In this document: in pieces, positions 18,001 through 21,000 of the stretch
Position numbering within the stretch: position 1 is the stretch's first letter
Layout: the number at the start of each line of letters is the position of its first letter
Virus record (IMG/VR): IMGVR_UViG_2684623059_000005
Direction: 5' to 3' (one strand)
DNA from: a virus
Lineage: Duplodnaviria > Heunggongvirae > Uroviricota > Caudoviricetes
Length of the DNA stretch: 46,081 nt
Program-made: the position numbers

Positions 18001-21000
18001 AAAGGAGTGAGGCGGTAAAAGATTTGAAGTTCAGTTTTCCGGTGGTACAGAAGGTCGCCAGTGCATTACCAGCACTGTTAAATGCCGCTGTAAGCATCTG
18101 CTCAGCAGTGCCTGCCGCATTATCCGCATCTGCCGTGAAATTCTGAAACGCCCGCATGGCACCGTTTTTCCAGTTACCCTGAGCAATTTCAAGCTGTTGC
18201 CAGTAACGGCGATTCTCATTCAGTTGTCGGTTCAGGCTCTCCGTCAGCGCCTTCTCGGCCTTTCTGTAGTCATCCGTGTTATATGTCCCTTTCTGCTCAC
18301 TATCCCGCCTCAACTGCTCCAGCTGTTGCTGGTATTTCTGGCGAAGACTCAGTTGTACCTGATATCGCTGCCGCTGCTGATCACCCATACCCACCGTGGC
18401 GATATCCAGGTCATGTTGCTGACGCTGAGCGCGCTCTTCTTCAGCCAGTTGACTGGTCAGCTGAATTGTTTTTTTCTTCAGATCGTTGAGTGCCGTCTGT
18501 TTCTGAAGCTCCTGCTGTTTTACATCCAGCAGCGTCAGTGCCTGAATCAGTTCATCTTTACGGGCCAGCACACTCTTTTCATCTGCCGTCAGTTTTTTCC
18601 CGTCCAGATCGCTGATGCGCTGCTGCAGAGCCAGAAGCTGTTTATGCGCTTCTGTCATCCTGTCAGTGGCAATGCCTGCTGACTGTCTTACAGCAGCAAT
18701 CTGTCCTTCCACCTGTGCCTGTTGCTGGCTGTACTGCAGCAATAACCGGGTGGCCTCATCATTACGGGTTTCGCGTGTTTTTTTCTTACCGGATGCCAGG
18801 GCTTTCTCGTAACGTTCATTTTCACGTTGTATCGCCGCATCCCTGACAGCCTGATCGGCGTACTGCATGGCATTAATACGCGCAATTTCACGCTGATGTC
18901 GTGCTGCTTCCGTTTCATTCATCCGGTTCAGTGCAGCATTTTCAGCATTACGGCGTTTCTGTTGCTCCTGATAATTCCGCTCTGCCTGCTCTTTTGCATC
19001 CTGCAAATCCTTCTGGCGTTTTTTCTCCTGAAGATCGTTAAGACGCTGCTGATCGTATTCAACCTGAGAAGATGATGCCGTCCAGGGGAGTCTTTTCGCC
19101 CGCGACACTTTCTCCTGCAAAGTGGCAATCTGCGCATCCAGCGAGTCTTCACGACCAATATTCATGGCCGCATCCCAGAACTGCTTCCACCAGTCAGACA
19201 AGGTTTGCAGCGTACTACCCAGCGCATTGAGGTTATTATCAATATCCGCAGTACGCCGACCGGTTTCCTCTGCCAGTGCAGACATGGCTATCCGTGCCGC
19301 ATCACTGGACCGCCCCTGCTCTCCAAGGACGCGTATCTGCTCAAGCTGAGTGGCAGTAAGAAAATGCAGCTCATTGTCCAGAGACTTCGCGGCATTTACA
19401 GGATCATCCTTCAGCCGCTTAAACTGATTTATGGTATCGCTGACCGACTGGCCAACCGATCGCTCCATCTGTGCGGCAGCTCTCGCCACCATACCGATAT
19501 CGTTTCCACGAAATGCACCACTCCCCACCACCTGAGCAAGCGCACCGGCTGCAGCATGTTGCGTGATACCATTCCCGGAAATAGCACGACTGAGCGTCCA
19601 CAGCTGCCCGGCAGTGACTCCGGCATAATGCCCCGTCAGCGACAACTGGCGGTTAAATTCTTCCCCCTCCTTCTGACCGTCATACCAGGCTTTACCCAGA
19701 CCATAGACGGCCGCGGCAATACCGCCAATAACCGCTCCTGGCATCATGCCTTTCGGTGACATCAGTGTGTCTATCCATCCGGCACGGTTAGCCAGCGTTA
19801 TCCCGGATCCCCTCAGCGCCCCTAAATTGCCGCGGGCCAGTTCACCTATCAGAACGCCTATCTCCTGGCGGGCTGCTGCACTTTTCAGACCCAGCGAATG
19901 CGTGGCTTTTCCTGCCTGCTCCATTTTGCGGATATACACTTCTGCAGCACTGCTTACCCCCAGCTGGGCTGCCTTAGCACGAAGCAACTCAGAAGATGAA
20001 AGATTCTGGCGGGTTGCCTGCTCTTTAAGCTGACGGATAAACGCCACTTTCTGTCGGGTAGCCTCTTCCTCAGCCTGTGTAAGAACACGGGTTTTCGCCG
20101 TAACCTCAGAAATCAGCGCCAGATAATCCTGCTGGCCAATCCCGCCACTGTTTCTGGCCTGTCGGATCTGCTGCTGAATACGCTGTAATTCCTGTAGCCC
20201 CGCACTGGCCTGTTTCACACTGTCAATCTGACGATAAAACGCAGCAGCCGCTTTATCCTGAGCCTCCGCCAGAGCCATGGCCTGCGCCTGTTCCTCGCGC
20301 ATTTTCTGGCTCAGTGCCTCCATACGCTGGCGGGTTTGCTCCACCTCGCGGGCCATGCGTTCATGAGCCTGTGCGTTCTTCTCCACCGTCTGCGCATGGA
20401 CGGATGCGGCTGTTGCAGCCGAAGACGCCGCCTGCGTTGTCTGCCGGGCGGCCTGAGTCTGACGCTCCATAAAACGCTGCATACGGGCAGAAGACCGTTC
20501 TGCATCGCTGGCTGCACCATTCAGAAGGTTTTTGATACGGGGAATTTCATTTTTAAACTCTGCCGCATCAATCCCCAAATCAATGACCAGGTTGGCTATC
20601 TGGTCCATAACGCACACCTCCGGAAATACCTTCCCCAAGATGCATCAGTTCTTCGTCCGTTCGCTCCGGTATCCCGTTCTCTTCCGGTAAAAGGCTGAAA
20701 TCAGCCACCGCAGCATCACTGCTGCCGGACACCATTCTCACGATCAATGCCTTCAGCGAGGCAAACTGCGCATCCATCCACACATCACTGAAGCTCTGCA
20801 TCCGGAAATAATCGCCCCACTCACCAAGCTCAGTGGCCGACATTTCCGACAGCATCCGCCGCCAGTCTGCCCGCCGGAACTCCCGGGCAAGCCGCATGAC
20901 AAACTGCATTTCCCGCGTCAGGACTTTTCCGGCGTCAGCGCCTCATGCTCATCATCCCCGGCATTATCAATGGCCCCCATACCGCTCAGCGACAGAACCA

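What the first reader, a model, noticed from the sequence alone, without database searches (positions are those of the whole stretch)
20900..20945. G/G-T frameshift site with a non-canonical slippery sequence
The T frame is open across the G stop in the -1 frame, consistent with the conserved G/G-T programmed frameshift, but the sequence at the shift point is CCGGAAAAGTCC rather than the canonical lambda GGGAAAG heptamer.
Basis: partly seen in the sequence, partly recalled or inferred. Interest (0 to 1): 0.35.

Follow-up and report, generated by a model that had tools for sequence, protein, structure and literature searches.

The report
Phage tail-chaperone G/GT frameshift site
This is the well-known programmed -1 ribosomal frameshift that joins the two tail-assembly chaperone genes (G and T) of a lambda-like E. 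coli prophage; its G_GAA_AAG slip site differs from lambda's by one base but is the commonest form in this gene family and is already annotated as the slip site in phage N15, so the finding is real but ordinary.

Summary
On the minus strand a gpG homologue (21307..20918) ends ...CCG GAA AAG TCC TGA. The -1 frame is open from 20942 to 20580 and encodes a gpT homologue, and the pair lies between the major tail gene and the tape-measure gene. The only plausible shift site in the 25-nt overlap is G_GAA_AAG (20930..20924).

It is not X_XXY_YYZ, but it is not unusual. Among 36 de-replicated lambda-type G/T junctions from Enterobacterales phages and prophages, 29 carry GGAAAAG at the homologous position and 3 carry lambda's GGGAAAG. 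The N15 GenBank record labels exactly these seven bases as the slippery sequence. Gifsy-2, with an identical junction, is annotated as a G+G' frameshift hybrid.

The first G is a wobble base and is conserved in 35 of 36 junctions across seven different preceding codons. This points to two-tRNA slippage: tRNA-Lys AAG to AAA, and tRNA-Glu GAA to GGA through a middle G.U pair. No downstream stimulatory structure was found.

The module occurs in about 34% of complete E. coli genomes. There T is always annotated as a stand-alone 109-aa ORF from a non-conserved ATG with no ribosome-binding site, which is an annotation gap rather than new biology.

The parts
21365..22108 (-). Major tail protein gene (lambda V homologue), immediately upstream of G
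   Evidence: Pfam Phage_TTP_12 E=1.5e-66 plus Big_2. The coordinates map to the 744-nt CDS of mEp460. A strong SD precedes the ATG at 22108 (dG -13.4).
21321..21344 (-). Intrinsic-terminator-like hairpin (GCCCCGG TTAT CCGGGGC + T6) between V and G
   Evidence: Read directly from the sequence. It is annotated as a rho-independent terminator at the same place in mEp460. N15 and HK97 carry equivalent features.
20918..21307 (-). Tail assembly chaperone G gene (0 frame), 129 aa, ending ...T-P-E-K-S-stop
   Evidence: Pfam PF06894 Phage_TAC_2 E=1.8e-39; translation; annotated gpG in PGAP and phage records.
20941..20944 (-). SD-like GAGG lying 10 nt 5' of the heptamer (possible weak stimulator; status inconclusive)
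   Evidence: Seen in the window, in Gifsy-2 and in 6 other representatives at the same offset. Its frequency is about what base composition at those codon positions predicts. It is absent from phi80, N15/HK225 and lambda.
20943..20945 (-). TGA stop in the -1 (T) frame; 5' boundary of the 25-nt window in which the shift must happen
20924..20930 (-). Slippery heptamer G_GAA_AAG (0 frame: Glu-Lys; -1 frame: GGA AAA G)
   Evidence: It is the only slip-prone motif in the overlap. It is invariant in all 128 GGAAAAG-type loci and occurs in 29 of 36 de-replicated junctions. The same seven bases are annotated as the slippery sequence in N15.
20918..20920 (-). G stop codon (TGA), one codon after the heptamer; 3' boundary of the shift window
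20580..20924 (-). T segment read in the -1 frame after the shift (V-L-T-R-E-M-Q-F... 114 codons plus stop)
   Evidence: Pfam PF06223 Phage_tail_T E=5.1e-15. Homology to lambda, Gifsy-2, phi80 and N15-type T begins at the first codon after the junction Lys, and the invariant E133 lies upstream of the annotated ATG.
20580..21307 (-). Predicted G-T fusion product, 242 aa: join(21307..20924, 20924..20580) on the minus strand
   Evidence: The fusion matches phrog_32165 end to end (residues 2-238, E=3.7e-38). tblastn gives two-piece hits covering 1-242 in 184 phage records.
20907..20909 (-). ATG used as the start of a stand-alone 'T' ORF in public annotations; probably not a real start
   Evidence: Annotated as the start in mEp460, Tritos and PGAP records. 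This Met aligns with Leu or Arg in the other lineages. There is no usable SD (dG -4.3 at 0 nt spacing).
17534..20608 (-). Tape measure protein gene (lambda H homologue); overlaps the end of the T frame by 29 nt
   Evidence: Pfam TMP_2 E=5.2e-49 and Tape_meas_lam_C E=6.5e-24. The start maps to the mEp460 CDS. SD dG -10.8.

Best explanation
A small fraction of ribosomes translating the tail-assembly chaperone gene G slip back one base on the heptamer G_GAA_AAG (20930..20924, minus strand), three codons before the G stop. They then continue in the -1 frame through T. The result is a 242-aa G-T fusion (...ALTPEK|VLTREMQF...) alongside abundant 129-aa G.

Inferred mechanism: with tRNA-Glu on GAA in the P site and tRNA-Lys(UUU) on AAG in the A site, both tRNAs re-pair one base 5'. 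The Lys tRNA moves from AAG to AAA, a perfect match. The Glu tRNA moves from GAA to GGA, giving C36:G, a middle U35.G wobble pair and U34:A.

By analogy with lambda, the G part binds the tape-measure protein and the T part recruits the major tail protein, and a large G:GT excess is needed for tail assembly.

Shown here: gene identities and order, frame relationships, the narrow shift window, and family-wide conservation of the heptamer including its wobble first base. Inferred: that the shift occurs, its efficiency, and the two-tRNA mechanism.
For: (1) G is PF06894 and the -1 ORF is PF06223, and they lie between V and H homologues.

(2) The shift window is only 25 nt and contains a single slip-prone motif. 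In some relatives the window shrinks to 3-6 nt 5' of the heptamer.

(3) In an alignment of 8 diverged fusions the junction Lys is invariant, and T-frame conservation (E133, F136, ARE...DWR) begins right after it.

(4) Among 36 de-replicated junctions from 156 loci the heptamer is GGAAAAG in 29, GGGAAAG in 3, GGCAAAA in 2, AAAAAAG in 1 and GGGAAAA in 1. Positions 4-6 are A in all 36.

(5) Heptamer position 1 is the wobble base of the preceding codon. It is G in 35 of 36 (1.82 bits), although that codon is GCG, CCG, CTG, TTG, GTG, ACG or ATG. The single exception is A, in TCA AAA AAG, so it covaries with the rest of the heptamer. Other upstream wobble sites carry 0.02-0.67 bits (at most 0.25 at all but one). 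This base is never decoded in the -1 frame, so its conservation fits P-site re-pairing.

(6) The N15 record annotates GGAAAAG as the slippery sequence. Gifsy-2, with the identical ACG CCG GAA AAG TCC TGA junction, is annotated as a G+G' frameshift hybrid.

(7) phrog_32165 matches the fusion end to end.

(8) The PRFect paper lists an XXYYYY ('twofour') motif class and discusses tRNA-Glu re-pairing from GAA to GGA via G:U.

(9) Free-living plaque-forming phages (mEp460, cdtI, Tritos, Ayreon) carry this same junction at 98-99.7% identity.
Against: There is no direct evidence of the fusion protein for this module. In a reconstituted E. coli system, G_GAA_AAG gave 'mainly the 0-frame product', and the authors called it unfavourable because of the second-position mismatch (Peng et al. 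2019, PMC6924986). In vivo, lone Z_ZZN tetramers without a stimulator are barely above background, about 0.15% against 0.11% (Sharma et al. 2014, PMC4066793).

I found no downstream stimulatory structure in the window (z = -0.96, +0.51 and +0.57). Upstream there is only a 4-nt SD-like GAGG, which is not enriched across the family. The efficiency may therefore be well below lambda's ~4%, and how enough GT is made is unexplained.

The 36 representatives are not phylogenetically independent.
Confidence: 0.82

Rival explanations
1. Single-tRNA slippage: only tRNA-Lys slips on A_AAG (in the A site, or in the P site while the next codon awaits decoding), and the preceding GG plays no part. The product would be identical (...PEK|VLTRE...).
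For: A_AAG is the most shift-prone tetramer in E. coli (Discussion of PMC4066793). A_AAG or A_AAA is the only element shared by all 36 junctions. [quoted passage not shown] Two lineages carry G_GCA_AAA, where P-site re-pairing is poor.
Against: Position 1, a wobble base that is never decoded in the -1 frame, is G in 35 of 36 across seven different preceding codons, and it covaries (A) in the A_AAA_AAG lineage. Position 2 is G in 35 of 36, although the C-terminal tail of G is otherwise poorly conserved. Tetramers without a stimulator are barely shifty, and no stimulator is evident here.
Confidence: 0.12
2. T is translated on its own from the ATG at 20909, as annotated in mEp460, Tritos, cdtI and all PGAP E. 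coli records, and no frameshift is needed.
For: An in-frame ATG exists 12 nt after the G stop. Public records annotate a 109-aa 'phage tail assembly protein T', and that exact sequence is on at least 1000 contigs.
Against: The Met aligns with Leu or Arg in lambda, Gifsy-2, phi80-type, N15-type and Providencia phages. The invariant Glu133 and the conserved residues before it lie upstream of this ATG. There is no usable SD: dG -4.3 kcal/mol at 0 nt spacing, against -10.8 for H and -13.4 for V. The -1 frame is kept open back to the heptamer in all 156 loci examined. In lambda, T acts only as part of G-T (review PMC5009743).
Confidence: 0.04
3. Out-of-frame decoding: with the preceding NNG codon in the P site, a tRNA-Gly(UCC) reads the -1-frame codon GGA. 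That tRNA could be the one this prophage encodes at 33144..33218. The junction would then be ...T-P-G-K-V... rather than ...T-P-E-K-V....
For: This would also explain conservation of G1-G2-A3 as an intact GGA codon. The prophage carries a tRNA-Gly(UCC) gene.
Against: The P-site tRNA cannot re-pair, because the preceding codons vary (GCG, CCG, CTG, TTG, GTG, ACG). The A_AAA_AAG lineage has no Gly codon in either frame. The tRNA genes are absent from another prophage carrying the same tail module. No precedent was found for this mechanism.
Confidence: 0.02
4. RNA polymerase (transcriptional) slippage on the A-run produces an mRNA with one base fewer.
For: The heptamer contains a homopolymeric run (AAAA).
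Against: The run is only four A's, while known slippage-prone tracts are considerably longer (established knowledge, not tested here). Conservation extends to the flanking G1, G2 and G7, which have no role in polymerase slippage.
Confidence: 0.01

Closest known systems
Phage N15 gene 14/15 frameshift (NC_001901, slippery sequence annotated at 10027..10033)
   Same: The heptamer GGAAAAG is identical, at the homologous position near the end of the gpG homologue. The -1 T frame and the V-G-T-H gene order are the same, and there is a terminator-like hairpin after V.
   Different: The proteins are only about 36-38% identical to the window's G-T (N15-like HK225). The preceding codon is GCG (Ala) rather than CCG (Pro). 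The G ORF continues 5 codons after the heptamer rather than 1. N15-type members have a hairpin about 33 nt downstream that the window's clade lacks.
Phage lambda G/G-T programmed -1 frameshift (G_GGA_AAG)
   Same: The protein families are the same (PF06894 + PF06223), as are the gene order and the position of the shift. The junction Lys and the A_AAG A-site element are invariant. Lambda keeps the 0 frame about 96% of the time and needs a high G:GT ratio (PMC3296357; PMC5009743).
   Different: One base differs: position 3 is A instead of G. The P-site codon is therefore GAA (tRNA-Glu) instead of GGA (tRNA-Gly), and re-pairing needs a middle-position G.U pair. The junction dipeptide is Glu-Lys rather than Gly-Lys. 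The window's T lacks lambda's C-terminal duplication (114 against 144 residues).
Salmonella phage Gifsy-2 STM1039/STM1041.1n (annotated 'G+G' frameshift hybrid')
   Same: This is the nearest distinct relative, with about 55% identity over the fusion. The junction is identical: ACG CCG GAA AAG TCC TGA, with GAGG 10 nt upstream.
   Different: The host is different, and the sequence on both sides of the junction has diverged.
E. coli dnaX / IS911-type stimulated -1 frameshifts (A_AAA_AAG with an upstream SD-like element and a downstream hairpin or pseudoknot)
   Same: Both are -1 shifts with tRNA-Lys slipping from AAG to AAA. The window has a 4-nt SD-like GAGG at the 10-nt spacing that is stimulatory in dnaX (spacing rule described and PMC4066793).
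   Different: No downstream structure exceeds shuffled controls. The SD-like element is weak and not conserved. The P-site codon is not a perfect slip codon.

Membership tests
Lambda-type tail assembly chaperone G/G-T programmed -1 frameshift | Two overlapping ORFs located between the major tail protein gene and the tape-measure gene | tested here: met
   V (PF16461), G, T and H (PF06791/PF09718) are in order on the minus strand.
Lambda-type tail assembly chaperone G/G-T programmed -1 frameshift | Upstream ORF homologous to gpG and downstream ORF homologous to gpT | tested here: met
   PF06894 E=1.8e-39 and PF06223 E=5.1e-15. phrog_42 and phrog_39, plus the fusion family phrog_32165.
Lambda-type tail assembly chaperone G/G-T programmed -1 frameshift | Downstream ORF in the -1 frame relative to G, open across the G stop, without its own conserved start or ribosome-binding site | tested here: met
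   Frame relation. The annotated Met is not conserved. There is no usable SD.
Lambda-type tail assembly chaperone G/G-T programmed -1 frameshift | A conserved slip-prone heptamer inside the overlap | tested here: met
   G_GAA_AAG is the only candidate in the 25-nt overlap. It is conserved in 29 of 36 de-replicated junctions, while the flanking bases vary.
Lambda-type tail assembly chaperone G/G-T programmed -1 frameshift | Fusion protein actually made at a few per cent of G, and required for tail assembly | not testable with these tools
   This needs a reporter assay, immunoblot, mass spectrometry or genetics. The exact fusion sequence is not deposited anywhere in the 15-billion-protein collection.
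Canonical X_XXY_YYZ slippery heptamer | Positions 1-3 identical and positions 4-6 identical, so that both tRNAs keep non-wobble pairing after the shift | tested here: not met
   Positions 1-3 are G, G, A. The P-site tRNA-Glu would face GGA with a second-position G.U, which Peng et al. called a 'second-position mismatch'.
N15-type G_GAA_AAG G/T slip site | Heptamer GGAAAAG in register G_GAA_AAG at the position homologous to the N15 annotated slippery sequence | tested here: met
   The N15 misc_feature at 10027..10033 is GGAAAAG. N15-like HK225 and the window align at the junction Lys.
Stimulated bacterial -1 PRF (dnaX/IS3/IS911 type) | Stable hairpin or pseudoknot starting about 5-9 nt 3' of the heptamer | tested here: not met
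   The window's downstream 55-100 nt fold no better than shuffles (z = -0.96, +0.51, +0.57). The family alifold gave no consensus.
Stimulated bacterial -1 PRF (dnaX/IS3/IS911 type) | SD-like element about 6-17 nt 5' of the heptamer | tested here: inconclusive
   GAGG lies 10 nt upstream in the window and in 7 other representatives. It is only 4 nt long, occurs about as often as composition at those codon positions predicts, and is absent from phi80-, N15- and lambda-type members.

The most novel reading that the evidence does not exclude
G_GAA_AAG, which ribosome biochemists use as a 'less slippery' control, is the dominant natural G/T shift site of lambda-like phages of Enterobacterales. The conserved wobble G at its first position indicates genuine two-tRNA slippage with a middle-position G.U pair in the P site.

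Both slipping tRNAs (Glu and Lys) carry mnm5s2U34. The G:GT ratio of these phages could therefore be even more sensitive to the host's tRNA thiolation state than lambda's. I found no measurement of the in vivo efficiency of this heptamer in the open literature.
Probability: 0.25. Interest if true: 0.4.

Novelty: already known. Interest (0 to 1): 0.15.

Why it matters
The biology is textbook. The G:GT ratio set by this frameshift is needed to build a tail of correct length, and both the frameshift and this heptamer variant are already recognised (N15 and Gifsy-2 annotations).

Two practical points follow:

1. **Annotation.** This tail module is in about a third of complete E. coli genomes (1847 of 5426). 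In every record I inspected, T is called as a truncated stand-alone 109-aa protein, and the true 242-aa product is absent from public protein collections. Annotation pipelines that look only for XXXYYYZ will miss the commonest form of this site.

2. **Mechanism.** The family-wide pattern gives a clean natural case of tolerated P-site near-cognate re-pairing. GGAAAAG occurs in 29 of 36 lineages, and its wobble first base is conserved. This could be measured directly against lambda's heptamer.

Tried and rejected
**Downstream stimulatory structure.** Folding 55, 70 and 100 nt 3' of the heptamer gave z-scores of +0.51, +0.57 and -0.96. An alifold of 36 representatives gave no consensus, so I rejected this for the window. 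A hairpin seen in lambda-, phi80- and N15-type members (z < -2 in 15 of 36) starts about 33 nt downstream. It is built from the LAREFGRPDWRAML codons and is too far away to act as a classical stimulator.

**Upstream SD-like stimulator.** GAGG is present at 10 nt, but it is not enriched over composition and not conserved, so I left this as inconclusive.

**Independent T initiation.** Rejected.

**Other shift sites in the overlap.** None exist.

**Transcriptional slippage.** Rejected because the A-run is too short.

**Literature.** The open full-text search for GGAAAAG with 'slippery' and 'phage' found only Peng et al. 2019. Xu, Hendrix & Duda 2004 (Mol Cell) is not held in the library, so I could not verify what it says about this heptamer.

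**Exact fusion look-up.** The fusion was not found as a deposited protein in any of three forms.

**Context from a near-identical chromosome.** NZ_CP073360 turned out not to be collinear with the window outside the tail module.
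Full report
**What is there.** The genes in this part of the window run on the minus strand. 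A 129-aa ORF (21307..20918) ends ...GAG GCG CTG ACG CCG GAA AAG TCC TGA. It matches Pfam Phage_TAC_2, the lambda tail assembly chaperone gpG, at E=1.8e-39. The frame one base upstream (-1) has a TGA at 20945..20943 and is then open from 20942 across the G stop to 20582..20580. This frame matches Pfam Phage_tail_T at E=5.1e-15. Upstream are homologues of lambda Z, U and V. Downstream is the tape-measure gene H (20608..17534).

**What the window is.** The G-T region is 98-99.7% identical to the lambdoid phages mEp460, cdtI, Tritos, HannyBb and Ayreon. It is found in 1847 of 5426 complete E. coli genomes. The window begins in the host genes qorA, pspG and dusA, followed by a prophage integrase, so it is a lambdoid prophage sitting next to dusA. 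No complete E. coli genome in the collection is collinear with the whole window; the best coverage is 77-89%.

**Where the shift can happen.** The two frames overlap for only 25 nt. In that stretch the only slip-prone motif in the correct register is G_GAA_AAG (20930..20924). The heptamer is not rare as a string: it occurs 14 times in the window against 7.2 +/- 2.8 expected. Only this copy lies three codons before the end of a long ORF with a 116-codon -1 continuation.

**Comparative evidence.** I built G-T fusions for eight diverged lineages: the window, lambda, Gifsy-2, mEp213, Providencia PSTCR8lys, HK225, a Klebsiella phage and an Stx1 phage. In their alignment the junction Lys is invariant. 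Conservation in the T frame starts at once after it, at E133, F136 and A-R-E...D-W-R.

The Met that public records use as the start of a stand-alone T (ATG at 20909) aligns with Leu or Arg in all the other lineages. It also has no usable Shine-Dalgarno sequence. Its duplex energy is -4.3 kcal/mol at 0 nt spacing, against -10.8 for H and -13.4 for V.

I then collected 143 further loci from viral contigs and from one-genome-per-species bacterial assemblies. With the earlier loci this gave 156 junctions, which I de-replicated to 36 representatives (<90% nucleotide identity around the junction). The heptamers at the homologous position were:

| Heptamer | Representatives |
|---|---|
| GGAAAAG | 29 |
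| GGGAAAG (lambda type) | 3 |
| GGCAAAA | 2 |
| AAAAAAG | 1 |
| GGGAAAA | 1 |

The GGAAAAG hosts include Escherichia, Salmonella, Citrobacter, Kluyvera, Kosakonia, Enterobacter, Providencia, Sodalis, Symbiopectobacterium, Pluralibacter and Phytobacter. The window's heptamer is therefore the majority form of this family, and lambda's is a minority form.

**Prior knowledge.** The GenBank record of phage N15 carries a misc_feature 'slippery sequence for -1 translational frameshift' at 10027..10033, and those bases are GGAAAAG. The Gifsy-2 record annotates its T homologue as 'part of G+G' frameshift hybrid protein', and its junction is identical to the window's: ACG CCG GAA AAG TCC TGA. HK97 is annotated with a joined CDS 'translated due to a -1 frameshift'. 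A PHROG family of full-length fusions (phrog_32165) matches the window's predicted fusion over residues 2-238. The PRFect paper lists an XXYYYY ('twofour') class of backward slip motifs and discusses tRNA-Glu re-pairing from GAA to GGA through G:U pairing (PMC10274946). Both the frameshift and this heptamer variant are thus already known.

**How it most likely works.** All 36 junctions have A at positions 4-6, and 33 have G at position 7. The A-site event is therefore the classical slip of tRNA-Lys(UUU) from AAG to AAA.

The informative position is position 1, which is the wobble base of the preceding 0-frame codon.
- That codon is GCG, CCG, CTG, TTG, GTG, ACG or ATG, encoding six different amino acids. 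Position 1 is nevertheless G in 35 of 36 representatives (1.82 bits).
- The single exception is A, in TCA AAA AAG, where it matches the rest of that heptamer.
- Other wobble sites upstream carry 0.02-0.67 bits, and at most 0.25 at all but one.
- This base is never decoded in the -1 frame, because in many lineages the -1 frame is closed by a stop 3-12 nt upstream. Protein coding therefore does not explain its conservation.

The pattern fits re-pairing of the P-site tRNA-Glu from GAA to G1-G2-A3, giving C36:G1, a U35.G2 wobble and U34:A3. I infer two-tRNA slippage with a tolerated near-cognate P-site pairing, yielding ...ALTPEK|VLTREMQF... (242 aa). This step is an inference. The representatives are not independent, and a lone tRNA-Lys slip would give the same product.

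**What argues for caution about efficiency.** Peng et al. used G_GAA_AAG as their 'less slippery' sequence. In a reconstituted system it gave mainly the 0-frame product, and they attributed this to the second-position mismatch (PMC6924986). Sharma et al. found that tetramers without a stimulator are barely above background (0.147% against 0.112%). The best heptamers without a stimulator were only 2-10 times a 0.055% background (PMC4066793). Lambda shifts at roughly 4% (PMC3296357), giving a G:GT ratio of about 30:1 (PMC5009743).

I found no downstream structure in the window (z = -0.96, +0.51, +0.57). A GAGG lies 10 nt upstream, which is the spacing that is stimulatory in dnaX. However, it is only 4 nt long, occurs about as often as composition predicts, and is absent from phi80-, N15- and lambda-type members. 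How much GT this site yields is therefore unknown, and I could not find a measurement in the open literature. Xu et al. 2004 is not held in the library.

**Rivals.**
- *Independent initiation of T* is contradicted by the non-conserved Met, the missing SD and the conserved residues upstream of the ATG.
- *Out-of-frame decoding of GGA by tRNA-Gly(UCC)* is conceivable, and the prophage even encodes such a tRNA at 33144..33218. But the variable preceding codons cannot re-pair, and the A_AAA_AAG lineage has no Gly codon.
- *Transcriptional slippage* is implausible on a run of four A's.

**Annotation consequence.** The exact 109-aa stand-alone T is on at least 1000 contigs under the name 'phage tail assembly protein T'. 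The 242-aa fusion, in either the Glu-Lys or the Gly-Lys form, is absent from a 15-billion-protein collection. PGAP and most phage submitters annotate G and T separately for this module.

**Verdict.** The finding is real, correctly interpreted and ordinary. It is the conserved lambda-type G/G-T -1 frameshift with the N15-type heptamer G_GAA_AAG. That heptamer deviates from the X_XXY_YYZ rule but is the commonest form in the family and is already annotated as such. Interest is low. The residual interest lies in measuring a natural near-cognate P-site slip site and in correcting a widespread annotation gap.

Noticed in passing
window 33144-33446 (-): There are three adjacent prophage-borne tRNA genes: tRNA-Gly(UCC), tRNA-Thr(UGU) and tRNA-Met(CAU). 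They lie upstream of the lysis genes. tRNA-Gly(UCC) reads GGA, the -1-frame P-site codon of the heptamer; I judged a link unlikely. Another prophage with the same tail module lacks these tRNAs.
   Followed up: partly
window 32387-32393 (-), inside ORF 32288-32632 (-): A second in-register ...CCG GAA AAG... lies within a DUF1327 ORF (Pfam E=1.6e-42), 34 codons before its stop. The -1 frame stays open there for 127 codons, running into ORF 32010-32357, which has no Pfam or PHROG match. This is probably coincidence; conservation was not examined.
   Followed up: partly
window 21321-21344 (-): A terminator-like hairpin (GCCCCGG-TTAT-CCGGGGC followed by T6) lies between the major tail gene V and G. 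Equivalent features are annotated at the same position in mEp460, N15 and HK97. It would lower transcription of G, T and H relative to V.
   Followed up: partly
L004, L008, L009, L010, L116, L120 and others: about 33-70 nt after the heptamer: Lambda-, phi80- and N15-type relatives share a stable hairpin, GGCGCGYG...CRCGCGCC, formed by the codons of the conserved LAREFGRPDWRAML motif. It gives z < -2 in 15 of 36 representatives. The window's clade (LAREFRRADWRRML) shows no such signal, with z about +0.6. It lies too far from the slip site to be a classical stimulator, and no function was tested.
   Followed up: partly
L101 (Kluyvera), L103 (Ewingella), L007/L117/L147 (Providencia), L131: Some lineages place the G stop codon immediately after the heptamer: G_GCA_AAA TAG, G_GAA_AAG TAG and G_GGA_AAA TAG. 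In the G_GCA_AAA cases P-site re-pairing is poor, which suggests a stop-assisted or single-tRNA variant of the shift.
   Followed up: no
L133-L145 (genome-contig hits): G/T loci with the lambda junction sequence occur on short, mostly low-coverage contigs. The assemblies are labelled Kitasatospora, Neobacillus, Oceanobacillus, Pseudomonas, Shewanella, Leeuwenhoekiella, Chromatium, Tardiphaga, Paenibacillus and Enterococcus. They look like lambda DNA contamination of those assemblies. E. coli-type prophage contigs also sit in MAGs labelled Bacillota and Geobacteraceae.
   Followed up: no
window 1-3749: The window starts in the host genes qorA (1-984), pspG and dusA (1526-2563, minus strand). 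A tyrosine integrase follows immediately (2652-3749), so the prophage is integrated beside dusA.
   Followed up: partly
window 20580-20909 (-) and public records: The 109-aa stand-alone 'phage tail assembly protein T' is annotated on at least 1000 contigs, and the tail module is in about 34% of complete E. coli genomes. The 242-aa fusion is absent from the 15-billion-protein collection. This is a systematic annotation gap for GGAAAAG-type junctions.
   Followed up: yes
L161 (E. coli UTME-12, NZ_CP157095) 19371-23517: In this otherwise similar prophage, PGAP flags the neighbouring V, U, Z, DUF2190 and capsid genes as 'frameshifted' pseudogenes. The cause is either a decaying prophage or homopolymer errors in that assembly.
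   Followed up: no
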